Notes under the pieces: generated by a model
Databases searched by the model: none
What the model saw: the letters and a program-made list of their open reading frames with translations, nothing else
Told to the model about the DNA's origin: nothing
Program-made: the position numbers and the translations under genes
Sequence record: NC_070909
Direction: 5' to 3' (one strand)
DNA from: Escherichia phage Cartapus
Length of the DNA: 33,368 nt
Part shown: one piece after another, positions 162 to 33,240 of the stretch
Position numbering within the stretch: the stretch's first letter is position 1
How the letters are laid out: the number at the start of each line of letters is the position of its first letter

Positions 162-860
162 ATGGTTATGTTAGTGGATGACTGTCCACGATGTGGATCA
201 CAAAAAATAGCGTTTGATGTTAATGGGCTGAATTGCACTAGGGTTTACAATGCATTGGGCGGGGGTAAAACATACGAGTACGAGGTCTATTGTGTTTGCC
301 GAGAGTGTCATAAAACGACAATGTTTCTTTGCAGACCTTTAACGAAAAATAAAACTTTAGATGGCTATAATTGGGAAAGTGGAATATTCGGCTTAAAGGA
401 AGTTGCAGAGGTTGTTAGGCCTATATCACCGGCAGACTTAGCAGTAGAGGAGCCACCAGAGTTCTTACCTGAGCATATCAATAGTGCATATGAGGAAGGG
501 GCGAAATGTTTGGCTATAGGTTGTTATAATGCAGCAGCAACCATGTTTAGGCTTTGCCTTGATTATGCCACAAAAGGACTTCTTCCTGATGGGGAGCAAG
601 GGCCTGCGCAAAAAATAAGGAGAAGCCTAGGGTTAAGAATGGAGTGGTTATTTGATAATCATCTACTGCCTGAAGCTTTAAGGGAACTAGCTGAATGCGT
701 TAAAGATGACGGAAATGATGGAGCGCATGAAGGTATTTTGGATAAAGCTGCTGCTGAGGATCTTGAAGATTTTACCTATCTTTTTTTAGAACGGCTTTAC
801 ACTGAACCTCAACGCCTTATCGAAGCCAAGACAAGGCGTGAACAAAGAAGAAACAAATAA
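162..860 (+). CDS. accessory protein with N-terminal zinc-ribbon (CPRC...CRECH) and C-terminal DUF4145-like region; function unknown
   Basis: ATG at 162 preceded by GGGAGGAG 8 nt upstream. 232-aa ORF convergent with Q, lying in the cos-Q moron slot. The Cys pairs and the C-terminal GAHEG...LERLY-type region recall DUF4145 (an Abi/restriction-associated domain), from memory only. Confidence 0.6.
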   Translation: MVMLVDDCPRCGSQKIAFDVNGLNCTRVYNALGGGKTYEYEVYCVCRECHKTTMFLCRPLTKNKTLDGYNWESGIFGLKEVAEVVRPISPADLAVEEPPEFLPEHINSAYEEGAKCLAIGCYNAAATMFRLCLDYATKGLLPDGEQGPAQKIRRSLGLRMEWLFDNHLLPEALRELAECVKDDGNDGAHEGILDKAAAEDLEDFTYLFLERLYTEPQRLIEAKTRREQRRNK

Positions 861-9254: not shown

Positions 9255-9785
9255 TTACGCTCTTAATAAACTTAAATAACTTTTTATGCTTTGGCAAAAA
9301 GGGAAAAGGTCTATTTTAATTTTCCAGTTTTTTTTGTTTTGAACCCCAGAAGCAATAATAGAACCGTCCCAATATTTTATTCCATTTTTGCCGGTCTTTT
9401 TTGTTAACTCAAAACTTAATGCGTGAATAATTTTATTGCAGCATTCGCGTATAGAATCTTTAACATGACCATCTATAACAAAAAGTATATTTTCATGTTC
9501 TTCAAATGCTTCTTTCTCAGGTGAGTAATCTGGGTTCCACTCATGTTCACTAGTGTCTTGGAGAATTCGTAGTTTTGTACAAAGGCTAATAAGATTGTTG
9601 CTAATGGTATATTCCAACCATCCGTTGTACGATAACTCCTCCATTTCAAATTCAGTTACTATAGAACCATCATATACTTTCTGTGTGGAATATATACGCT
9701 GTAAATAAAATTCAGATGAACAGCATAATTGCTCAATTATTCTTGCGTGTTCTTCTATAGCGTAATAATCAATTGGATGGCTCAT
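9255..9785 (-). CDS. hypothetical accessory protein in the S-V (P2 orf30) moron slot
   Basis: AT-rich ORF opposite to the flanking late genes. Track ORF runs to 9824, but the ATG at 9785 has an AAAGG RBS (176 aa, MSHPIDYY...). No domain recognised. Confidence 0.5.
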   Translation of the reverse strand: MSHPIDYYAIEEHARIIEQLCCSSEFYLQRIYSTQKVYDGSIVTEFEMEELSYNGWLEYTISNNLISLCTKLRILQDTSEHEWNPDYSPEKEAFEEHENILFVIDGHVKDSIRECCNKIIHALSFELTKKTGKNGIKYWDGSIIASGVQNKKNWKIKIDLFPFCQSIKSYLSLLRA

Positions 9786-9816
9786 TCTTTTACCTTTCTT
9801 TGATTGGAATTGTATT

Positions 9817-9834
9817 TGTGTCATTTACCACACA
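9817..9834. promoter_or_regulatory. TGT-N12-ACA dyad (late promoter element upstream of V)
   Basis: tgtGTCATTTACCACaca about 50-60 nt upstream of the V start. Same element type as at 3716 and 15568. Confidence 0.35.
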
Positions 9835-12308: not shown

Positions 12309-13726
12309 GCACAAAATTTTATACCCTGCTGACGGATATTGGCGCGGCGAAACTTGCCAGCGCCGCCGCGCTCGGTGTGCCGCTAAAAATTACCCATATG
12401 GCGGTGGGCGATGGCGGCGGAACATTGCCAACGCCGGACGCCAAGCAGACAGCATTGGTAAATGAGAAACGCCGGGCTGCGCTGAATATGCTCTATATCG
12501 ACCCGCAGAACAGCAGCCAGATTATTGCTGAACAGGTGATCCCTGAAAACGAGGGCGGTTGGTGGATACGTGAAGTGGGCCTGTTTGATGAGTCCGGGGC
12601 ATTGATTGCCGTGGGCAACTGCCCGGAAAGCTATAAGCCGCAACTGGCTGAAGGCAGCGGGCGTACCCAGACCGTGCGCATGGTGCTGATTACCAGCAGC
12701 ACGGACAATATCACCCTGAAAATCGACCCTGCCGTAGTGCTGGCAACCCGCAAGTATGTGGATGACAAGGTACTGGAGCTGAAGGTGTACGTGGATGATC
12801 AGATGGCAAAACATCTTGCCGCACCGGACCCGCATTCACAGTATGCACCCAAAGAAAGTCCGACGTTTACCGGGACACCAAAAGCGCCAACTCCAGCGGC
12901 AGGGAATAACACCACGCAGGTTGCGACCACCGCGTTTGTTCAGGCGGCACTGACGGCTCTTATTAATGGTGCGCCAGCCACGCTGGACACGCTGAAAGAA
13001 ATAGCCGCAGCCATTAACAATGATCCGAATTTCAGTACCACCATTAACAATGCGCTGGCACTGAAAGCGCCGTTGTCGAGTCCGGCACTCACCGGAACGC
13101 CAACAGCCCCCACTGCTGCACAGTCGGTCAACAATACACAGATTGCCACCACGGCTTTTGTGAAATCGGCGATTGCAGCAATGGTAGGTTCTGCACCTGC
13201 GGCACTGGATACACTGAACGAACTGGCGTCGGCGTTGGGGAATGATCCGAACTTTGCCACGACAATGCTTAATGCGCTGGCAGGTAAACAACCGCTGGAC
13301 AATACGCTGACTAATTTGAGTGGAAAGGATGTCGCTGGTCTTCTCGCATACCTTGGTTTGGGAGAAGCGGCAAAACGGGACGTGGGAACAGGGGAAAATC
13401 AGATACCGGATATGGTTTCATTTAGTGGTGTGAGGGATTTTTATGGAAAACAACTTTTGCCAGGAGGGTTGATACTCCAGTGGCTGACGATTCCATCAAG
13501 TGCAGCAGTCAAAGCTGTAACACTGGATAATGGTAATTATCAGCTGTCAGGCTATAAATGGCCCCAGTCATTTGGTGTCCTGTTTGCTGTGTTTGCCACA
13601 AAAGTTTCTGGCTCGACTAACGAAGCATACGCAATCTCAGTTAATCGTCACTCTACCGATGTAATTGTCACCTGGAATGCCCGTAAGGCTGATGATGTCC
13701 ATATTTTAGGAATTGGGAAATTATGA
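12305..13726 (+). CDS. H: tail fibre protein (P2 gpH-like) with constant N-terminal part and invertible C-terminal part
   Basis: 473-aa ORF. The 25-bp crossover repeat lies inside it at 13353-13377; the C-terminal 116 aa are encoded inside the invertible segment. Confidence 0.85.
13353..13377. repeat. left 25-bp inverted repeat (recombination site of the tail-fibre inversion module)
   Basis: TTGGTTTGGGAGAAGCGGCAAAACG; its exact reverse complement is at 14862-14886. Confidence 0.8.
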
Positions 13727-14142
13727 AAATGAAATGGTCCCCATCTGTTCAGGGATTTTTCTCTGAAAACAACAGCGATATTCCCGATGATGCTTTCGAT
13801 ATTGAAGATGCTCTTTATTATGAACTTATGAATGGTCAGAGTACGGGGAAAATTATTATCAATAGCCCGGATAACTACCCTGTACTTACTGAATATCCAG
13901 CGAAGACACATGAACAGGAAATAGCTGAAGCGGAGGGAATGAAAAATATACTTATTGAACAGGCCAACGATTATATGAACAGTAAACAATGGCCTGGTAA
14001 AGCGGCTATTGGCCGGCTGAAAGGTGAGGAACTGGCACAATATAATTTGTGGCTGGATTACCTGGACGCACTGGAACTGGTCGATACTTCCGGTGCGCCA
14101 GATATTGAATGGCCTACACCTCCGGTAACTCAGGCCAGCTAA
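13723..14142 (+). CDS. G: tail fibre assembly chaperone (gpG/Tfa-like)
   Basis: 139-aa ORF directly after H, with an acidic N-terminus and conserved-looking C-terminal ...DIEWPTPP. Confidence 0.75.
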
Positions 14143-14509
14143 TCTCAGGAGCCGTCGAAGTGTCGACGGCTTTTACTTCTTTTTTGTAGTCCATCCAGGC
14201 AGATAGTTTTTCTTTATCTGTACTGCTGATATCACCAAGCATTAATTCCACCCGCCAGTCAGCTGTGACATTATCGGCATGAGCAAGTAACTGCATTCGC
14301 TGATTTTCAGCACGTGCGACATAATCAATCGCCGGAGATTTCAGTACCGGTAAACCATTTTCATCTGACGTGATTAATTTCCCCCCTTCCTGCTGTCCGG
14401 CAATTAATTCATTGTATAAGTCTGTACTTATCTCAACAATGTCAGCAGGCATGTCGCTGTTTATACCATCAAAGAAAAAACCATTAGTCGATTTTGAGAA
14501 ATAAATCAT
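14114..14509 (-). CDS. alternative tail fibre assembly chaperone (Tfa-like), inverted orientation
   Basis: Minus-strand ORF with ATG at 14509 (MIYFSKSTNGFFFDG...) ending in ...[10 protein letters not shown], parallel to the plus-strand Tfa. The 3-prime ends of the two Tfa genes overlap by 29 nt. Confidence 0.7.
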   Translation of the reverse strand: MIYFSKSTNGFFFDGINSDMPADIVEISTDLYNELIAGQQEGGKLITSDENGLPVLKSPAIDYVARAENQRMQLLAHADNVTADWRVELMLGDISSTDKEKLSAWMDYKKEVKAVDTSTAPEISWPELPEV

Positions 14510-14517
14510 AGATATAC

Positions 14518-14861
14518 CTATACACCGATTGCTACCCAAAAACAGGACCTTTCATATTTGACAATTTCTCCCTGAGATATACCGCCAACAATTATATAGA
14601 ACTGTGATTTGCTGATATCAGAACAGTTCGCTATGCCCATTGCAGATATACCAGCCACCGACGTTGTATGTGGCACAGCCAACAGCGCAAGTGAACGATT
14701 TGGGAATGTTACCGGGTAAGTCACCGTATAGTTTGATGCTCCACTGACAATACCCCACTGAATAATCAGACCTGAAGGGAGTTTTTGAAAACCCGTTGAT
14801 GAAAGTGAACTGGCAAACGCCGCCATATCCGGAATTTGGTTTTGCTCGTTACCCACATTTC
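14518..14861 (-). CDS. alternative tail-fibre C-terminal segment (no own start; would be fused to constant H after inversion)
   Basis: Minus-strand reading frame open across the right inverted repeat. Encodes ...LGEAAKRNVGNEQNQIPDM..., paralleling the H segment ...[19 protein letters not shown]... Confidence 0.6.
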
Positions 14862-14886
14862 GTTTTGCCGCTTCTCCCAAACCAAC
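14862..14886. repeat. right 25-bp inverted repeat (recombination site)
   Basis: CGTTTTGCCGCTTCTCCCAAACCAA, the exact reverse complement of 13353-13377. Confidence 0.8.
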
Positions 14887-14952
14887 GTTTATGAAAATGC
14901 AGAGATAACGGCTAACTGGCATCATCTCCGGTTTTTATTCAGGGGGATGATC

Positions 14953-15519
14953 ATGCTTATTGGCTATGTACGCGTGTCAACAAATGACCAGAACACCGAT
15001 TTGCAACGTAATGCACTGAACTGCGCGGGATGTGAGCGGATTTTTGAGGATAAAATCAGTGGCACTAAGTCCGACAGACCGGGGCTGAAAAAGCTGCTCA
15101 GGACACTATCGGCAGGAGACACGCTGGTTGTCTGGAAGCTGGACAGGTTGGGGCGCAGTATGCGGCATCTTGTTACGCTGATAGAGGAGTTGCGCCAGCG
15201 TGGTGTGAATTTCCGAAGCCTGACTGACAGTATTGATACCAGTACCCCAATGGGCCGTTTCTTTTTTCATGTCATGGGTGCCCTGGCTGAAATGGAACGC
15301 GAACTGATAGTTGAACGTACCAGGGCAGGGCTGGCTGCAGCTCGTGCCAAAGGCAGAGTAGGTGGACGCCGTCCTAAGTTGACCACCGAACAGTGGGCAC
15401 AGATTGGGCGTTTACTCGAGGCCGGAGAATCAAGACAGCGTATTGCACTGATTTTTGATGTGGGTGTTTCCACAATTTATAGAAAATTTCCGGCAAATAA
15501 GAGTAATGAATCCCCCTGA
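14953..15519 (+). CDS. serine DNA invertase (Gin/Pin/Hin/Cin family)
   Basis: Track ORF 14836-15519. The ATG at 14953 gives MLIGYVRVSTNDQNTDLQRNAL..., close to the Pin/Gin N-terminus with the catalytic Ser in YVRVS. 188 aa, next to the inverted-repeat-bounded segment. Confidence 0.9.
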   Translation: MLIGYVRVSTNDQNTDLQRNALNCAGCERIFEDKISGTKSDRPGLKKLLRTLSAGDTLVVWKLDRLGRSMRHLVTLIEELRQRGVNFRSLTDSIDTSTPMGRFFFHVMGALAEMERELIVERTRAGLAAARAKGRVGGRRPKLTTEQWAQIGRLLEAGESRQRIALIFDVGVSTIYRKFPANKSNESP

Positions 15520-22793: not shown

Positions 22794-22817
22794 AACCTGC
22801 TACGGCAGGTTTTTATT
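22794..22817. terminator. hairpin plus T-tract between convergent ogr and the WYL/BRCT gene
   Basis: AACCTGC-TACG-GCAGGTT followed by TTTTATT, 8 nt after the ogr stop. It overlaps the 3-prime end of the minus-strand gene, so it may act in both directions. Confidence 0.6.
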
Positions 22818-23295
22818 CATCTGGGATCTCACCCGTTTCAAGAAAATGTATAAAGCCAGGCTCATCTATGATGATAGTGCCTTTCATCCTGGCTGCCGAT
22901 ACTTTTGATGGGCCTGCATTGTAACCGCAACAGAGCATCTGAAGGTTTTGGGTTACAGATGTTCTTACCGTTAATCCTTGTTCATTCGCCTTATCAACCA
23001 ACCTTTCTTTATCTGCTTTCTTAAATCCGGTGAAACACACATCGAATGTATTTTTTTTCGGACCTGACTGCTTAGTGAGATGTGAGTAGTTTTCGGGGAG
23101 GAATGACGCGCATTCCTGAATGGCTTGTTCTTGTGAATCGTATTGTTTAAGAATGCGGTCTTTTCGGAAGGTTTTTATTCGATCGGTGTTCTTACAAATG
23201 CCCTGTATGTGATTTTCGCTATAACTGATGCTCTGTATTGAGTGAACACCGATACGACCATTTGCATTGATGTAAACAAAGTGAAGTTCTTCCAT
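22813..23295 (-). CDS. small protein with WYL-like N-terminal region and C-terminal BRCT-like domain; function unknown
   Basis: 160-aa ORF, ATG at 23295 with an AAGAGG RBS. C-terminus (DVCFTGF...GLTVRTSVTQNL...GPSK...IIIDEPGFIHFL) resembles the BRCT domain of NAD-dependent ligases. N-terminus (GRIGVHSIQ...IKTFRKDRI) resembles a WYL domain. Both by recalled motifs only. Confidence 0.5.
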   Translation of the reverse strand: MEELHFVYINANGRIGVHSIQSISYSENHIQGICKNTDRIKTFRKDRILKQYDSQEQAIQECASFLPENYSHLTKQSGPKKNTFDVCFTGFKKADKERLVDKANEQGLTVRTSVTQNLQMLCCGYNAGPSKVSAARMKGTIIIDEPGFIHFLETGEIPDE

Positions 23296-23376: not shown

Positions 23377-23408
23377 AAGAAAAAGGGGCTACGCTTTCAC
23401 GTAACCCC
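23377..23408 (-). terminator. rho-independent terminator on the minus strand immediately after the ssrA-derived core
   Basis: Minus-strand reading gives a 9-bp stem (GGGGUUACG/CGUAGCCCC, one G-U pair), a 6-nt loop and a TTTTTCTT tract, directly downstream of the tmRNA-like 3-prime end. Confidence 0.5.
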
Positions 23409-23418
23409 TTGATTTATT

Positions 23419-23463
23419 TGGTGGAGCTGGCGGGAGTTGAACCCGCGTCCGAAATTCCTACAT
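23419..23463 (-). other. attP: attP core: 45 nt identical to the 3-prime end of ssrA (tmRNA)
   Basis: The reverse complement reads ...ATGTAGGAATTTCGGACGCGGGTTCAACTCCCGCCAGCTCCACCA, the tmRNA T-arm and acceptor end including CCA, as I recall E. coli ssrA. Identity stops abruptly at 23463. Confidence 0.8.
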
Positions 23464-23582
23464 ACCATTTTTACTATAACAAAAACAGTAAATTTCGTTT
23501 GAAAACATATTGTTAATGTTATTTGGTGTTTGTCCGTTTTATAGGTTTTTAATGCTCTGCCGCCAAAATGTCGCCATTACTA

Positions 23583-24788
23583 TCATGGTTTAATATGGGC
23601 ATATACTTGAATTTCATCCATACAAGTTTCGAGTTTATAAAAGTCAGTTAAATTATAGATGTTCAAAATTTCATCATCTATGCTTCCTGTTAGCTCACGA
23701 TTTTTTCTTCTTCGTAGCCTTCTGCTGAGATTCTCTCGATCGGATTGTGCAACTGATTCAGGCACGTACTCAACTGTTTTTAGGACCTGCCAAGATACAG
23801 GCAATGTGAATTTGAAAATTTTCGCTAGATTTGGACAAAATTCATTATTGGCCATCTCCTCGTAACGCACTTTTGGAGGAAGTACCACATTTATTCCTCT
23901 GCTACCTAAGGCATTAGCAGGTAATTTTGTTGAGCGGTAGGCTATACCAACAACATTCTCATTGCTGTTCCGACTGATCCATTGCATCAAAAGATTGGGG
24001 ATAATATATTCTTGTACAAAGGAAGCATTGTCATATTTTTTTAAATAATTGCATGCAATTATCAAAGGCCAAAGTGCTAAATATGAGAGTTTGGTATTGA
24101 AATCATATTTGTTCTTTCTTTTTGACTCTAATATAGATCTCTGTTTATATAAAAAATCAGGTCCTATATTTAGTACCTTTGAGTCATTATTTTTATCGAT
24201 CTTGTAGGCAGATATATATAGCTTATCAAAATCTGGCTTATCCATTTCTCTCCAGCATATATAAAGAGATGTTCCTAAATATAAACAGGGTAGACCAGCA
24301 ACTGAAAATCTCTGTGCTCTAACAAAGTGACGCTGACTGAACGGAATATGAAACATATCTCTTCTTGATGTAAGTGGCGTATCAGATTTTCTAACGCGGA
24401 ATAATGGTTTATCTTCATTACATAAGTCAGAAAGAGGTATGCATATATTTTCAATATGACGAGATATAGTTCGTGGCTCTAGCATACTTTCAAATGAGTC
24501 ATATGCCGACTTAATATCCCCTGATAAAAAACACTCTAAACACGAGACGATTTCTTTCTGCATGATATCTACAGCTCTAAGTCTATTGCGCAAGCGTAAA
24601 CTTAACCTGTTATCATTTTCCTGGATGTAATCTACTAAACAACCCCGGAATTTACTGCATTTTAGAGCGAAGTCATCTATCAAAGTAAGGTTTTTTTCAA
24701 TCTCAATTGGTGGTCGAATACTTGATTTTTTTCTAATAGTGTCAAAAAGATTATTAAGTTCTTCATCGAGTTCTTGTTGAATATGCAT
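23583..24788 (-). CDS. large accessory protein with a RES-domain-like core (possible NAD+-targeting toxin-type fold); function unknown
   Basis: 401-aa AT-rich ORF, 9 nt downstream of the int stop. The central segment ...FRVRKSD...QRFSVAGLPCLYLGTSLYICWRE... parallels the Arg / Tyr-x-x-x-Ser / Glu core of RES toxins (MbcT/ParT type) as recalled. No adjacent antitoxin-like ORF. Confidence 0.5.
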   Translation of the reverse strand: MHIQQELDEELNNLFDTIRKKSSIRPPIEIEKNLTLIDDFALKCSKFRGCLVDYIQENDNRLSLRLRNRLRAVDIMQKEIVSCLECFLSGDIKSAYDSFESMLEPRTISRHIENICIPLSDLCNEDKPLFRVRKSDTPLTSRRDMFHIPFSQRHFVRAQRFSVAGLPCLYLGTSLYICWREMDKPDFDKLYISAYKIDKNNDSKVLNIGPDFLYKQRSILESKRKNKYDFNTKLSYLALWPLIIACNYLKKYDNASFVQEYIIPNLLMQWISRNSNENVVGIAYRSTKLPANALGSRGINVVLPPKVRYEEMANNEFCPNLAKIFKFTLPVSWQVLKTVEYVPESVAQSDRENLSRRLRRRKNRELTGSIDDEILNIYNLTDFYKLETCMDEIQVYAHIKP

Positions 24789-24797
24789 TTTTATTTA

Positions 24798-25814
24798 TCA
24801 CTTTAAGTTAAATAAGGGGTTTTTAGTAACAGCATCTTCAAGATGTTCTGGTGCGAAATGGGCATAGACCATTGTCATTTTTATATCTGAGTGCCCTAAA
24901 ATATCTCTCAATACAAGAATATTTCCGCCATTCATCATAAAGTGACTAGCGAATGTATGGCGCAATACATGCGTGCACTGGCCCTCTGGCAAGTCAATAC
25001 CTGCTCTTTTTACTGCACGCTCAAAAGATTTTCTGCATGGCGTGAATAACTTCCCTCTGTTTTTGGGGAGTTCGTGATACAGATCTTGAGATATTGGTAC
25101 TGTTCTGTTTTTCTTGCCCTTTGTCTTTGTATAAGTAATTCGGTATTTCGATATTTGGTGGCCCTGAAGGTTTTCGGCTTCACTCCACCGTGCGCCGGTA
25201 GCTAAGCATATTTTTGCAATCATTAGTAGGCTCGGGCTTTGAGATTCAGCACATGCAGCCAACAGGCGCTTGATTTCGTCCACGGAAAGAAAAGCCAGCT
25301 CACCTTCGGTAATTTTGAAGGTCGGAAGTCCTGCCAGCGGGTTTGGTGCTGACCAGTGTCCTAGTTTTTTTAATGTACCGAACACCGATGATAGATTGCG
25401 CTGTTCAAGGTTTACCGTGCGGGGCTTAACGGGCGACATAAGCGTGCCATCTTCATTTCGTACTTCACCTTTTAACCGTGCTTCGCGGTATTTCGTAAAG
25501 TCACCGGCTGTTAGTTCTGAGGCGATGGGATCGCCTAGACCATTACAGATAATTCTAAGTTTCGCCATGAGGCGCTTGGGGTCTGCGAGTGTTTGACCAT
25601 ACAGGGAATACCACTGCTCAATTAATTCTGATAGGTGTCGCCGATCTTCCTTTTCCCCCAGCCATGGTTTTTTGTTCACTTCTTCCATTGTGAAGCTTTC
25701 AAAAGCAATGGCTTCGCCTTTCGTAGCAAATTGCTTACGCACGCGCTTGCCATTGCGTCCATTGGGATAGCACTCGCACAACCATTTACCGTTTGGCTGT
25801 TTTCTGACAGTCAT
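24798..25814 (-). CDS. int: tyrosine integrase (phage integrase family)
   Basis: 338 aa. C-terminal ...HVLRHTFASHF...LGHSDIKMTMVYAHF carries the R-H-R-Y catalytic signature. Adjacent to attP and the repressor gene. Confidence 0.9.
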   Translation of the reverse strand: MTVRKQPNGKWLCECYPNGRNGKRVRKQFATKGEAIAFESFTMEEVNKKPWLGEKEDRRHLSELIEQWYSLYGQTLADPKRLMAKLRIICNGLGDPIASELTAGDFTKYREARLKGEVRNEDGTLMSPVKPRTVNLEQRNLSSVFGTLKKLGHWSAPNPLAGLPTFKITEGELAFLSVDEIKRLLAACAESQSPSLLMIAKICLATGARWSEAENLQGHQISKYRITYTKTKGKKNRTVPISQDLYHELPKNRGKLFTPCRKSFERAVKRAGIDLPEGQCTHVLRHTFASHFMMNGGNILVLRDILGHSDIKMTMVYAHFAPEHLEDAVTKNPLFNLK

Positions 25815-25816
25815 GT

Positions 25817-26449
25817 TTAGATACTCTTTATTACTTTGACTGCACGCCCAATAACTTCCACATCATCAGTAGAGCACTCGAAAGACGCTTCATCTTGATT
25901 TACTACAATCTTATTGCCGGGAATCCGCATGATTTTTGCAACAATAATCATTCCATCAATATTGATAAGCCAGAATCCATTGCTGACCTGTTTAATTGAT
26001 TTATCGATGAGATAACAATCAGTAGGGGTTTCTAAGAACATCGATTCTTCATAATCTGCAGGTAATATGCTGTGGTCTAGGAAAATCTCTTCATCAATAC
26101 TGAGTTGTCCATTCTCCAGGGTTCCTTTAGGAATAGCTGGAGTTATGAGTTTGGATAACGGTTTAATTGCTTGTTTGTTCTCATTATGAGAACTTTTCTC
26201 AGGCTCAGCTCCTCCTTTCATGCTTCCCTGTCCTGTAGCTAACCAAAGCAACGAAACACCGGTTTCTAGTGCGCACTGAATTATCCAGTCAGCAGGAAAG
26301 CTGTCACGTAACACTCTGTTTGCCATAGTGCTTTTTGAGACATTCAGGTGCTCGCTTAATGCCTGCTTAGTTGTGAATCCATAAGCCTCAAGCAGCCTTT
26401 CAATAGCTGCCTTACCTCCCGTATCGGAACCCATTCTGATGTTTAACAT
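25817..26449 (-). CDS. cI: CI-like immunity repressor (N-terminal HTH)
   Basis: 210-aa ORF upstream of and co-oriented with int, divergent from the apl/cII operon. HTH-like region TTKQALSEHLNVSKSTMANRV. GGAG RBS. Confidence 0.7.
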   Translation of the reverse strand: MLNIRMGSDTGGKAAIERLLEAYGFTTKQALSEHLNVSKSTMANRVLRDSFPADWIIQCALETGVSLLWLATGQGSMKGGAEPEKSSHNENKQAIKPLSKLITPAIPKGTLENGQLSIDEEIFLDHSILPADYEESMFLETPTDCYLIDKSIKQVSNGFWLINIDGMIIVAKIMRIPGNKIVVNQDEASFECSTDDVEVIGRAVKVIKSI

Positions 26450-31813: not shown

Positions 31814-32002
31814 ATGCAGGACTATTTTTTGGAGTCTTTGAAGCTCCAGCGCATTGATTTTTTTCTTAAGCTTGTAGCGGCTAGTGAGTGTAGTGATGAA
31901 GAGAAGGGGCTGGCCCTGCAGTGGGTTTCTGAACTGACAGATGAACTCATGGCAAAAATCAGAACCCACGAATACAACCGCTCAATGGATGTCATCAGCT
32001 GA
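31814..32002 (+). CDS. tum: Tum-like SOS-inducible antirepressor (putative)
   Basis: 62-aa ORF with AGGAGGA RBS directly downstream of the LexA box, followed by a DinI-like ORF, as at the phage 186 tum locus. Confidence 0.45.
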   Translation: MQDYFLESLKLQRIDFFLKLVAASECSDEEKGLALQWVSELTDELMAKIRTHEYNRSMDVIS

Positions 32003-32012
32003 GGTGACTTTT

Positions 32013-32246
32013 ATGCGCATTGAAATAATGATCGATAAAGAGCAGAAGATTAGCCAGTCTACCCTGGACGCTCTGGAGTCCGAGCTTTACCGCAACCTGC
32101 AACCCATCTATCCCAAGACAGCTATCCGCATCCGTAAAGGGTCGGCAAACGGCGTTGAGCTGAGTGGCTTAAAGCTTGATGAAGACAAAAAGCGGGTGAT
32201 GGAAATTATGCAGCAGGTTTGGGAAGACGACAGCTGGCTGCACTAA
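32013..32246 (+). CDS. DinI-like protein
   Basis: Track ORF 31941-32246. The ATG at 32013 gives MRIEIMIDKEQKISQSTLDALESELYRNLQ..., closely parallel to E. coli DinI as recalled. 77 aa. Confidence 0.75.
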   Translation: MRIEIMIDKEQKISQSTLDALESELYRNLQPIYPKTAIRIRKGSANGVELSGLKLDEDKKRVMEIMQQVWEDDSWLH

Positions 32247-32628: not shown

Positions 32629-33240
32629 ATGGATTTAGTCTTTAAAATTCTGGCTTCGTTGGGTGGGGTGTCTTTTGTTGCATCTGGCATATTTGTTTGG
32701 ATCGGGAAAGTTTATTTAGAAAGATATAAGTCGCGGCTAAACAAAGATATTGCTGAATTTCAATCACAACTGAGTGCAACTAATGAAAGAATAAAGGCTA
32801 AGTTAGACAATTCTGTTTATGTAACGAAAGCGTATTTTGATAAGGAGTTATCAGCATATAGTCTCATTTGGAATTCGATGTTTGAAACCAGAGAAAGCGT
32901 GCTTAAGCTGAGGCCTGCGCTGGATCATTTTGACCCCAACGAACCATTTGAAGAGAGAAAATTTAGAAGGTTGAAAGTTTTTTTCGATGCATTTAATACT
33001 TTTGTTACAAGTGTTGAGTCTAACAAACCGTTCATCTCACCAGAGGTTTATATAATCTTGGACCGTTTCCGGAAGGAATGCCTTTCAGAGTCAATATCGT
33101 TTCAGCATGGCGATCCAGAATTTGACTGGCAAAATTATTGGAAAGAGGCAGAGTTGAACCGTACAACCATCACCAAGCTTTTTGATGAGACGTGTGATGC
33201 AATTCGAGACAGGATGCACACATTAACTGTGGTTACGTAG
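32629..33240 (+). CDS. hypothetical membrane-anchored protein (accessory, cos-proximal moron)
   Basis: 203-aa AT-rich ORF with one N-terminal hydrophobic helix (LVFKILASLGGVSFVASGIFVWIG), then a charged, probably helical region. Followed by a terminator. Confidence 0.5.
   Translation: MDLVFKILASLGGVSFVASGIFVWIGKVYLERYKSRLNKDIAEFQSQLSATNERIKAKLDNSVYVTKAYFDKELSAYSLIWNSMFETRESVLKLRPALDHFDPNEPFEERKFRRLKVFFDAFNTFVTSVESNKPFISPEVYIILDRFRKECLSESISFQHGDPEFDWQNYWKEAELNRTTITKLFDETCDAIRDRMHTLTVVT

What the first reader, a model, noticed from the sequence alone, without database searches (positions are those of the whole stretch)
23583..24788. 401-aa protein with a RES-like core wedged between attP and the integrase gene
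An AT-rich 401-aa ORF sits 9 nt downstream of int, in a slot that is empty in P2. Its central region (...QRFSVAGLPCLYLGTSLYICWRE...) has the Arg / Tyr-x-x-x-Ser / Glu arrangement I associate with RES-domain toxins, which in characterised cases degrade or transfer from NAD+. It is about twice the length of a typical RES toxin, with unrecognised extensions of roughly 120 aa at each end. No Xre/ParS-type antitoxin ORF lies beside it. In the lysogen it would sit at the prophage end near ssrA. A long, solitary RES-like protein carried at the att end of a temperate phage is a plausible single-gene abortive-infection or superinfection-exclusion effector, and I do not know of a described system of this architecture.
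Basis: partly seen in the sequence, partly recalled or inferred. Interest (0 to 1): 0.78.

Follow-up and report, generated by a model that had tools for sequence, protein, structure and literature searches.

The report
Stand-alone RES enzyme gene beside integrase
A P2-like prophage carries, right after its integrase gene, a 401-aa protein whose core matches recently described stand-alone "aRES" anti-phage enzymes that destroy NAD+, but with a different front domain, so it is probably an untested sister family of that defence.

Summary
The ORF is real: 23583-24788 on the minus strand, 401 aa, AT-rich, 9 nt after int and 119 nt from the ssrA-type attP. It belongs to a large uncharacterised family of 2,689 clusters that includes SPbeta YopC and SopEPhi OrfY. 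Pfam RES stays below threshold for this protein (11.9 bits). RES is nevertheless the recurrent hit across relatives: 24 of 81 members at E<=0.01.

The decisive result is a profile-profile match of residues 126-306 to the RES domain of aRES (probability 87-91%, P 4e-6 to 9e-7). aRES proteins are stand-alone RES anti-phage proteins from a January 2026 preprint. All six residues whose mutation abolishes aRES defence align with R131, R133, R160, Y170, E181 and S286. These are invariant or nearly so in the family.

The N-terminal domain, a predicted four-helix bundle, shows no similarity to the aRES N-domain. No antitoxin or conserved partner gene exists. In 77 of 80 viral loci the gene sits directly after a Fels-2-type integrase.

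Fold searches were uninformative, and function is inferred only.

The parts
23583..24788 (-). orf401: 401-aa stand-alone RES-domain protein of the YopC/OrfY family (phrog_7835)
   Evidence: ORF. phrog_7835 E 1.4e-198. 100% identical to the RE-2010 gene ELphiS00001c, annotated 'unknown', and to E. coli LF82 WP_001429732. BLASTP to SPbeta YopC E 2e-43.
24444..24788 (-). N-terminal domain, aa 1-115: predicted four-helix bundle, a candidate regulatory or sensor module
   Evidence: AF2 model 2 has pLDDT above 90 here, with helices 2-20, 36-57, 61-88 and 92-115. Foldseek top hits are cytochrome b562-type bundles, not significant. It is one of the least conserved parts: 37% mean pairwise identity against 62-74% for the core, with the 201-240 stretch at 34%. 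No similarity to the aRES N-domain, P 0.21.
23754..24443 (-). RES-type catalytic core, aa 116-345, with R131, R133, R160, Y170, E181, S286 and N300
   Evidence: hhalign against aRES: probability 87-91%, P 4e-6 to 9e-7, 169-170 columns; the best of 30 column-shuffle controls scored 17.4 against 47.7. Residue map to aRES R182, R184, R215, Y225, E236, S334. Conservation across 81 sequences: R160, Y170 and E181 invariant; R131 79/81 with 2 Lys; R133 79/81; N300 79/81; S286 73 Ser plus 8 Thr.
23586..23753 (-). C-terminal helical extension, aa 346-401
   Evidence: Helices 348-362, 370-374 and 382-393 in AF2 model 2, with pLDDT 65-95. 43% mean identity among enterobacterial members.
24798..25814 (-). 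Tyrosine integrase (Fels-2/186 type), immediately upstream on the same strand
   Evidence: Pfam Int_N 9e-29 and Phage_integrase 6e-24. Directly upstream of the family member in 77 of 80 viral loci.
25817..26449 (-). 186-type CI repressor, first gene of the tightly packed cI-int-orf401 string
   Evidence: Pfam Phage_CI_repr 2e-30 and Phage_CI_C 4e-30. No terminator-like site between cI, int and orf401.
23414..23463 (.). attP core, identical to the 3' end of ssrA (reverse complement on the + strand)
   Evidence: Sequence read. Matches annotated ssrA in 5,426 of 5,426 E. coli genomes. The 84-bp terminal repeat of the RE-2010 record ends here.
23383..23410 (-). Intrinsic terminator that follows the reconstituted ssrA after integration
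   Evidence: 12-bp stem followed by a T run on the - strand.

Best explanation
orf401 encodes a stand-alone RES-domain enzyme with no antitoxin. It belongs to the uncharacterised YopC/OrfY family, a sister group of the recently described aRES anti-phage proteins.

The most likely mechanism has four steps.
1. The gene is the last one in the tight cI-int-orf401 string on the minus strand, so it is probably transcribed with the repressor and present in lysogens. This is inferred.
2. The enzyme is held inactive in uninfected cells, presumably by its own N-terminal four-helix bundle and/or C-terminal helices, because no separate antitoxin exists. This is inferred.
3. Infection by another phage activates it, and the RES core cleaves NAD+. 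By analogy with aRES and MbcT this would be phosphorolysis to nicotinamide plus ADPR-1''-phosphate. This is inferred from conservation of all residues required in aRES.
4. NAD+ loss arrests the cell and aborts the infection, protecting the lysogen population and so the prophage. This is inferred.

Shown here: the gene is real and constrained; it is homologous to the aRES RES domain with a conserved active site; it has no partner gene; it is linked to int in Felsduovirus-type prophages; and its N-terminal domain differs from that of aRES.
For: RES homology. Pfam RES is the only recurrent hit: 24 of 81 family members at E<=0.01, best 1.5e-5. YopC scores 22.4 bits over profile positions 17-126 of 157. 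RES is listed for 8 of 10 divergent members, 11-19 bits, and is the only hit or the lowest-E hit in 7 of them. hhalign against aRES gives probability 87-91% and P 4e-6 to 9e-7 over residues 126-306; shuffled controls reach at most 17.4 against 47.7. The six aRES residues whose Ala mutants abolish defence map one-to-one onto residues that are invariant or nearly so here.

Calibration. Validated aRES itself matches canonical RES only locally (53 columns, P 2.8e-5) and misses the MbcT clade (P 0.06). The weak canonical-RES signals for this family (P 4e-4 to 9e-4) are therefore in the expected range.

Solitary gene. No conserved neighbour in 80 genomes from many phyla and no small HTH partner.

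Defence context. The int-att slot is a minor P2 defence hotspot (PMC13586616). Seven Bacteroidota loci place a family member in an operon next to Septu and a methyltransferase. Several immediate neighbours elsewhere are Avs2, DrmD, type I/III R-M, IetA, BrxH and HmaA. One member is fused to an LlaMI restriction endonuclease domain.

Functional precedent. aRES depletes NAD+ to ADPR-1P on infection and protects E. coli.

Operon layout and gene reality. There is a 9-nt gap to int and no terminator before attP. Purifying selection, omega 0.10-0.28.
Against: There is no experimental datum for any member of this family. This protein is below the Pfam RES gathering score (11.9 bits against 23.2) and has no PADLOC or NCBIfam hit. 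Foldseek of a confident model (pLDDT 92) found no RES structure in the PDB and nothing significant in BFVD. Only non-significant ART-fold hits appeared: cholera toxin and LT-A at E 3.6-5.2, DarT at E 3.7.

The N-terminal domain that defines aRES (PF18870) is absent. The trigger and the autoinhibition mechanism are pure inference. RES enzymes can also be protein ADP-ribosyltransferases (ParT), so the chemistry is not fixed by homology. Many family members sit among housekeeping genes rather than in defence islands. Co-transcription with cI-int is inferred from spacing alone.
Confidence: 0.55

Rival explanations
1. The RES core is a macromolecule ADP-ribosyltransferase, like ParT, which modifies Prs. 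It would modify a host or phage protein or nucleic acid rather than deplete NAD+. The outcome could still be exclusion of other phages, or manipulation of the host by the prophage.
For: ParT (6D0H/6D0I) is a bona fide RES-domain ADP-ribosyltransferase. It shares the same R-x10-Y-x11-E spacing seen here (residues). RES belongs to the ART superfamily (PMC9503650). The weak Foldseek hits are all ADP-ribosyltransferases: cholera toxin, LT-A, DarT.
Against: The closest detectable relative by far is aRES (P about 1e-6), which was shown to be an NAD+ phosphorylase making ADPR-1P. Similarity to ParT-type RES is no better than to other TA RES clades.
Confidence: 0.15
2. It is a selfish stabilisation or stress module: a single-chain toxin-antitoxin in which the helical extensions replace the Xre antitoxin. 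It would promote prophage maintenance or persistence rather than phage defence.
For: Canonical RES proteins are TA toxins linked to persistence (NatT, MbcT). The gene lies at the extreme prophage end next to int. SPbeta yopC is preceded by a 75-aa Cro/C1 HTH gene, yopB.
Against: No separate labile antitoxin exists in 80 loci, so classical post-segregational killing is hard to implement. The sister family aRES is a proven defence without TA behaviour. Part of the family has defence-island neighbours.
Confidence: 0.1
3. It serves the phage's own lytic or counter-defence programme. For example, it could consume NAD+-derived immune signals or remodel host metabolism, rather than protect the lysogen.
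For: It is carried on a phage. NAD+/ADPR-processing enzymes are common phage counter-defence tools (PMC9503650).
Against: It sits on the repressor/integrase (lysogenic) strand, not in the early or late lytic operons. Most family members are chromosomal in non-phage contexts across many phyla. Only 7 of 50,697 phage records carry a homologue.
Confidence: 0.07
4. The RES resemblance is misleading. The protein would have another fold or activity, or be catalytically dead with a structural or regulatory role.
For: Below the Pfam threshold. No PDB sequence hits with the family profiles. Foldseek found no RES structure with a high-confidence model.
Against: The hhalign match to aRES far exceeds shuffled controls and covers the whole domain. 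Seven active-site positions are conserved across 81 sequences from many phyla. Bona fide RES clades are equally hard to link by sequence.
Confidence: 0.07

Closest known systems
aRES, antiphage RES-domain proteins (Osterman et al., bioRxiv 2026, doi 10.64898/2026.01.28.702374)
   Same: Stand-alone protein of about 400 aa with no operon partner, found in Enterobacterales. The RES core is homologous over about 170 columns, including the long stretch between the Glu and Ser motifs. All six residues required for aRES defence are conserved.
   Different: The N-terminal domain is unrelated. Here it is a four-helix bundle. aRES has a Cys-rich HEPN_RES_NTD1 (PF18870) domain, which is part of its definition. 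Full-length BLASTP similarity is only a 45-aa patch (E 8e-4). The aRES gene list contains no Bacillus subtilis (host of the SPbeta yopC prophage) and no E. coli LF82 entry, so this family seems not to have been captured. There is no phenotype for this family. Here the gene is fixed to the int-attP slot of a prophage.
RES-Xre type II toxin-antitoxin toxins (MbcT 6FKG, ParT 6D0H, Vibrio RES 8GUG, NatT, P. putida Res)
   Same: Same motif logic and spacing: hhR, then x20-29, then R-[WF]-[NS], then x10 to Y, x11 to E, then S and N. Same ART-derived superfamily.
   Different: These toxins are 150-190 aa and are always preceded by an Xre/MbcA/ParS antitoxin gene. orf401 is 401 aa with extra N- and C-terminal domains and no antitoxin. 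Sequence similarity is only local (P 4e-4 to 9e-4).
SPbeta YopC and SopEPhi OrfY (uncharacterised)
   Same: True family members. YopC is 30% identical over 287 aa (E 2e-43). OrfY is 47% identical and sits in the same slot after int. RefSeq already labels YopC 'RES domain-containing protein'.
   Different: yopC lies inside a 134-kb Bacillus phage, after a small HTH gene (yopB), not next to an integrase. No function has been reported for either.
Prophage exclusion genes expressed in the lysogen (lambda rexAB, P2 old and tin) and single-protein NADase defences (DSR1/DSR2, SIR2 and TIR effectors)
   Same: Works-like analogy only: a prophage-borne gene, plausibly expressed in the lysogen, that aborts infection by other phages, here by NAD+ depletion. 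The lambda and P2 examples are from established knowledge; the NADase list is.
   Different: No sequence or fold relationship. Different hotspot: old and tin lie between A and Q in P2.

Membership tests
Pfam RES domain (PF08808) | Scores above the curated gathering threshold (23.2 bits) | tested here: not met
   orf401 scores 11.9 bits, E 0.23, aa 146-182 against profile positions 11-48. Relatives: 24 of 81 at E<=0.01, best 1.5e-5. YopC scores 22.4 bits over profile 17-126.
Pfam RES domain (PF08808) | Conserved Arg, Glu and Ser, plus the Tyr and Asn that replace the S and E of R-S-E ARTs | tested here: met
   R160, Y170 and E181 are invariant in 81 of 81 sequences. S286 is 73 Ser plus 8 Thr. 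N300 is 79 of 81. The spacing R-x10-Y-x11-E is identical to ParT and 8GUG. The R-Y-N description is from PMC9503650.
Pfam RES domain (PF08808) | ART-like alpha/beta fold superposable on solved RES toxins | tested here: inconclusive
Pfam RES domain (PF08808) | NAD+ cleavage or ADP-ribosyl transfer activity | not testable with these tools
   Needs biochemistry.
RES-Xre type II toxin-antitoxin module | Adjacent Xre/MbcA/ParS antitoxin gene with a toxin-binding domain | tested here: not met
   The neighbours are int and attP. No conserved partner in 80 genomes and no small HTH ORF. Canonical RES loci fetched as controls all have the antitoxin.
RES-Xre type II toxin-antitoxin module | Single-domain toxin of about 150-230 aa | tested here: not met
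   401 aa with three predicted regions.
aRES (stand-alone antiphage RES proteins) | Stand-alone gene, 300-600 aa, not in an operon with a partner | tested here: met
   401 aa, no conserved partner. Definition.
aRES (stand-alone antiphage RES proteins) | RES domain with the residues required for defence (R182, R184, R215, Y225, E236, S334 in E. coli UC5) | tested here: met
   hhalign probability 87-91%, P 4e-6 to 9e-7. The residues align with R131, R133, R160, Y170, E181 and S286.
aRES (stand-alone antiphage RES proteins) | N-terminal HEPN_RES_NTD1 domain (PF18870, HHsearch probability >80%) | tested here: not met
   No PF18870 hit at E<=1 for orf401, and none among the families listed for 81 relatives. 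N-domain against aRES N-domain by hhalign: P 0.21. Caveat: HHsearch against Pfam itself could not be run.
aRES (stand-alone antiphage RES proteins) | Phage resistance with NAD+ depletion to ADPR-1P | not testable with these tools
   Needs plaque assays and LC-MS.
aRES (stand-alone antiphage RES proteins) | Enrichment in defence islands | tested here: inconclusive
   Among 135 immediate neighbours, PADLOC names several distinct defence proteins (Avs2, DrmD, type I REase, type III MTase, IetA, BrxH, HmaA, PbeA, PDC-S39). Seven Bacteroidota loci lie next to Septu. Many loci are flanked by housekeeping genes. No background rate was computed.
YopC/OrfY family (phrog_7835) | Full-length similarity to family members | tested here: met
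   phrog_7835 E 1.4e-198, aa 1-400. OrfY 47% identity over 98% of the length, YopC E 2e-43. 2,689 clusters matched the family profile.

The most novel reading that the evidence does not exclude
The YopC/OrfY family is a second, independent lineage of stand-alone RES immune enzymes. Its N-terminal four-helix bundle would be a previously unrecognised phage-sensing or autoinhibitory module that responds to different cues from the aRES N-domain. The same enzyme would be reused as the effector of a three-gene system in Bacteroidota (GHKL ATPase, a 220-aa protein, and the RES protein) and as a fusion partner of a restriction endonuclease. In Felsduovirus prophages it would be a long-standing lysogenic-conversion defence gene tied to int.
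Probability: 0.3. Interest if true: 0.65.

Novelty: new variant of a known kind. Interest (0 to 1): 0.5.

Why it matters
If the family is active, NAD+-depleting RES immunity is much wider than the aRES set. This family has 2,689 clusters at 50% identity across many phyla. It is very common in Salmonella, E. coli, Klebsiella and Enterobacter P2-like prophages, including the model pathobiont E. coli LF82, the sopE-converting phage SopEPhi and Bacillus phage SPbeta.

It would give a function to yopC and orfY, which have been unknown since the SPBc2 and SopEPhi (AY319521) records. It would add a defence gene to the little-studied int-att slot of P2-like phages. It would also offer a natural experiment in sensor-domain swapping on a common RES effector.

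It further predicts that phage ADPR-1P phosphatases and aRad-like inhibitors have more targets than is now appreciated.

Tried and rejected
Approaches that led nowhere:
- PDB sequence searches with the family profiles A1 and A2 found no RES chain, only designed helical bundles.
- The first AF2 model, built from a 30-sequence alignment, was poor in the core (pLDDT 68), and its Foldseek hits were meaningless.
- Foldseek of the good model against PDB and BFVD gave no significant hit. The N-terminal bundle dominates the alignment.
- Model coordinates cannot be reached from the sandbox, so active-site occlusion by the N-domain could not be examined.
- A search with a 50-aa 8GUG fragment to build a second RES clade returned only 4 partial proteins.
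- PADLOC and NCBIfam gave no hit.
- A search for a conserved partner, antitoxin or YopB-like HTH found none.
- Literature searches on yopC, orfY and RES in prophage defence found no functional study of this family.

Interpretations considered and rejected:
- Hotspot swapping as the reason int is 87-100% identical while orf401 is 44-100% identical. The dN/dS analysis shows int dS is already above 1 with omega 0.03, against omega 0.10-0.28 for orf401. The contrast therefore mostly reflects weaker constraint, not proven exchange or positive selection.
- Functional linkage with the 160-aa BRCT ORF across attP. That ORF occurs without orf401 in E. coli phage 500465-1.
Full report
**1. What is there**

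The window is a Felsduovirus (P2/186-like) genome. The finding's region (window 23380-25900) is 99.7% identical to Salmonella phage RE-2010. Window 23418-25814 is 100.0% identical to a prophage of E. coli LF82.

On the minus strand three ORFs are tightly packed. They are a 186-type CI repressor (25817-26449), a tyrosine integrase (24798-25814) and the 401-aa ORF (23583-24788). The gap between the int stop and the ATG is 9 nt, with no clear Shine-Dalgarno sequence. No terminator-like site lies between cI, int and orf401. The first one on that strand is at 23410-23383, beyond attP.

The attP core (23414-23463) is the reverse complement of the 3' end of ssrA and matches annotated ssrA in all 5,426 complete E. 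coli genomes. In P2 the attP core lies about 78 bp from the int stop, so the slot is empty there.

The ORF is AT-rich, with GC 0.32-0.38 against about 0.55 in the late genes. After integration, the intact ssrA ends up next to the 160-aa ORF on the ogr side. orf401 lies at the opposite prophage end, beside the duplicated ssrA fragment and host genes such as glaH in LF82.

**2. It is a real, widespread gene family**

A word-indexed search found 298 close homologues of 395-420 aa in Enterobacterales. An exhaustive profile search found 2,689 clusters at 50% identity, 963 of them at E<=1e-30, mostly 340-440 aa. A scan of one genome per species found 293 genomes in Proteobacteria, Bacteroidota, Acidobacteriota, Planctomycetota, Spirochaetota, Firmicutes and Verrucomicrobiota.

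The protein matches phrog_7835 (unknown function) end to end. Only seven phage records carry a homologue. They include SopEPhi 'orfY' (47% identity, same slot after int) and Bacillus phage SPbeta yopC (30% identity over 287 aa, E 2e-43). RefSeq labels yopC 'RES domain-containing protein'. In the one pair with unsaturated synonymous sites, dN/dS is 0.15 for the N-domain, 0.10 for the core and 0.28 for the C-terminus, against 0.03 for int.

**3. Is the core a RES domain?**

For this protein alone, Pfam RES is sub-threshold: 11.9 bits against 23.2, E 0.23. Across the family RES is the only recurrent Pfam hit. 24 of 81 diverse members reach E<=0.01, with a best value of 1.5e-5. RES is listed for 8 of 10 divergent members at 11-19 bits, and some of these hits span profile positions 14-137 of 157. 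YopC reaches 22.4 bits over positions 17-126.

Profile-profile comparison with canonical TA-type RES toxins gives only a local match. I built two such profiles: an MbcT-clade alignment, and a 71-sequence alignment drawn from plasmids and metagenomes. The match is gapless, R160-D186 against RES R28-D54, with P 4e-4 to 9e-4.

This weakness is normal for RES. An MbcT-clade profile finds the solved RES toxins ParT and 8GUG only over the same roughly 40 residues, at 20-24 bits. The experimentally validated aRES core matches my canonical RES profile over 53 columns at P 2.8e-5, and misses the MbcT clade altogether at P 0.06.

**4. The decisive comparison**

A literature search found a January 2026 preprint (Osterman et al., doi 10.64898/2026.01.28.702374) that describes aRES. 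These are stand-alone RES-domain proteins from E. coli UC5, K. pneumoniae and Enterobacter chengduensis. They protect against diverse phages, cause growth arrest, deplete NAD+ during infection and produce ADPR-1''-phosphate. Ala mutants of R182, R184, R215, Y225, E236 and S334 were constructed, and mutations in predicted active-site residues abolished defence.

I took the three protein sequences from Supplementary Table S4 (first ~400 aa as shown; the entries are cut). hhalign of the family alignment against them gives probability 87% and P 4.1e-6 over 170 columns, residues 126-306 against aRES 177-355. Core against core gives probability 91.4%, P 9e-7 and score 47.7. Thirty column-shuffled controls reach at most 17.4.

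The alignment places R131, R133, R160, Y170, E181 and S286 on aRES R182, R184, R215, Y225, E236 and S334. N300 falls on N349. The internal spacings are the same (i+2, +10, +11), and the Glu-to-Ser stretch is similarly long at 105 against 98 residues. In 81 family sequences from many phyla, R160, Y170 and E181 are invariant. R131 is 79 of 81 with 2 Lys, R133 is 79 of 81, N300 is 79 of 81, and S286 is 73 Ser plus 8 Thr.

I take RES homology and an intact active site as established at about 90% confidence.

**5. What differs from aRES**

aRES is defined by RES plus PF18870 (HEPN_RES_NTD1), and its N-terminus is Cys-rich (CHKC...CSYC).

orf401 has no PF18870 hit. Its residues 1-115 are predicted with pLDDT above 90 to form a four-helix bundle. 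hhalign of this N-domain against the aRES N-domain gives P 0.21, which is no similarity.

The aRES gene list in Supplementary Table S2 contains no Bacillus subtilis and no LF82 entry. It has only a handful of Salmonella entries, although this family is very common there. The family therefore seems to lie outside the published aRES set. That is an inference, because IMG gene identifiers could not be resolved.

**6. Structure**

With the deep alignment, AF2 gave pLDDT 92.4 and pTM 0.92. The model has an N-terminal bundle (helices 2-20, 36-57, 61-88, 92-115), a mixed alpha/beta core (116-345) and C-terminal helices (348-393).

**7. Context**

In Salmonella and E. coli the gene always follows int at the prophage end. 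Often another ssrA-targeting island is integrated in tandem beyond it. In IMG/VR, 77 of the 80 best loci have the Fels-2-type int directly upstream. Int is 87-100% identical (median 92%), whereas the ORF is 44-100% identical (median 49%), with the N-domain lowest. Because int dS is already above 1, this contrast mostly reflects weaker constraint on the ORF rather than demonstrated cassette exchange.

Outside enterobacteria there is no universal neighbour and no small HTH partner. Seven Bacteroidota loci have an overlapping three-gene operon: a GHKL ATPase of about 507 aa (weakly MzaB-like), an unknown 220-aa protein, and the family member. This operon lies next to Septu (PtuAB) and a DNA methyltransferase.

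Among 135 immediate neighbours elsewhere, PADLOC recognises Avs2, DrmD, type I and type III R-M, IetA, BrxH, HmaA and PbeA. Housekeeping genes are also common. One family member is fused to an LlaMI restriction endonuclease domain. A 2026 survey reports the int-att region as a minor defence hotspot of P2-like prophages, with 3% of systems (PMC13586616).

**8. Mechanism and confidence**

Shown here:
- a real, constrained gene;
- a RES core homologous to aRES with a conserved active site;
- no antitoxin or partner gene;
- physical linkage to cI-int.

Inferred:
- expression in the lysogen from the repressor/integrase transcript;
- autoinhibition by the protein's own helical domains;
- activation by infecting phages;
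- NAD+ phosphorolysis and abortive infection.

I put the whole chain at about 0.55. The main rivals are ADP-ribosyltransferase chemistry (0.15), a single-chain addiction or persistence module (0.10), a phage-benefit role (0.07) and a misleading RES resemblance (0.07).

**9. Novelty and verdict**

The idea of a solitary RES defence protein has since been described as aRES. orf401 fails one defining feature of aRES, the N-terminal domain, so I do not file it as a member. It is a new variant of a known kind: an untested, very widespread sister family (YopC/OrfY) with a different putative sensor module, fixed in the int-attP slot of Felsduovirus prophages.

Interest is moderate (0.5). It is not very surprising after aRES. 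It is directly testable, it assigns a likely function to long-standing unknowns (yopC, orfY and the LF82 prophage gene), and it broadens RES-based immunity.

Noticed in passing
window 22813-23295 (-): A 160-aa ORF on the ogr side of attP. It has a C-terminal BRCT domain (Pfam E 9e-4) and a weak WYL-like N-terminus. It matches phrog_2561, which is labelled 'DNA ligase'. It also matches the C-terminus of the PADLOC candidate PDC-S48 (E 1.7e-7). In lysogens it lies immediately downstream of the reconstituted ssrA. It occurs without orf401 in E. coli phage 500465-1.
   Followed up: partly
window 162-860 (+), 32629-33240 (+), 31941-32246 (+): AT-rich cargo between replication gene A and the portal gene, the classical P2 tin/old hotspot. 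It holds a 232-aa DUF4145 protein (E 4.5e-7), a 203-aa ORF with no family, and a DinI-like protein (E 3.9e-24).
   Followed up: partly
window 13723-15519: A Hin/Gin-type serine invertase (14836-15519: Resolvase 4e-53 plus HTH_7) lies next to opposed tail-fibre C-terminus and assembly-chaperone cassettes (13723-14142 on +, 14114-14539 and 14518-14925 on -). This looks like an invertible host-range segment.
   Followed up: no
window 9255-9824 (-): A 189-aa ORF with no Pfam family sits in an AT-rich island (GC 0.37) on the opposite strand to the surrounding late genes.
   Followed up: no
L041 3737-6996 (also L047, L050, L053, L058, L062, L070): Bacteroidota loci carry a conserved, overlapping three-gene operon: a GHKL ATPase (HATPase_c_3, 507 aa, weakly MzaB-like), an unknown 220-aa protein and a YopC-like RES protein. 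In L041 the genes just upstream are Septu PtuA and PtuB and a D12 methyltransferase. This may be an undescribed multi-gene defence system that uses the same effector.
   Followed up: partly
protein P0149 (611 aa): A family member is fused at its C-terminus to an LlaMI/MvaI-type restriction endonuclease domain (Pfam E 2.8e-42).
   Followed up: no
L091 3276-4939 (Bacillus phage SPbeta yopB-yopC): yopC is preceded, 108 nt upstream on the same strand, by yopB, a 75-aa Cro/C1-type HTH protein (HTH_26, E 3.6e-17). It could be a regulator or antitoxin-like partner specific to the Bacillus branch. No YopB-like ORF was found next to family members elsewhere.
   Followed up: partly
window 23418-25814; L094: This stretch is 100.0% identical to the E. 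coli LF82 chromosome. 12 of 5,426 complete E. coli genomes carry at least 80% of it. RefSeq annotates the gene there as 'hypothetical protein' (WP_001429732).
   Followed up: yes
L187 versus window (int and orf401): Between the window and locus L187, int has dS 1.08 but the adjacent orf401 has dS 0.20-0.52. The two neighbouring genes therefore have different histories in this pair, which suggests a recombination junction near the int/orf401 boundary.
   Followed up: no
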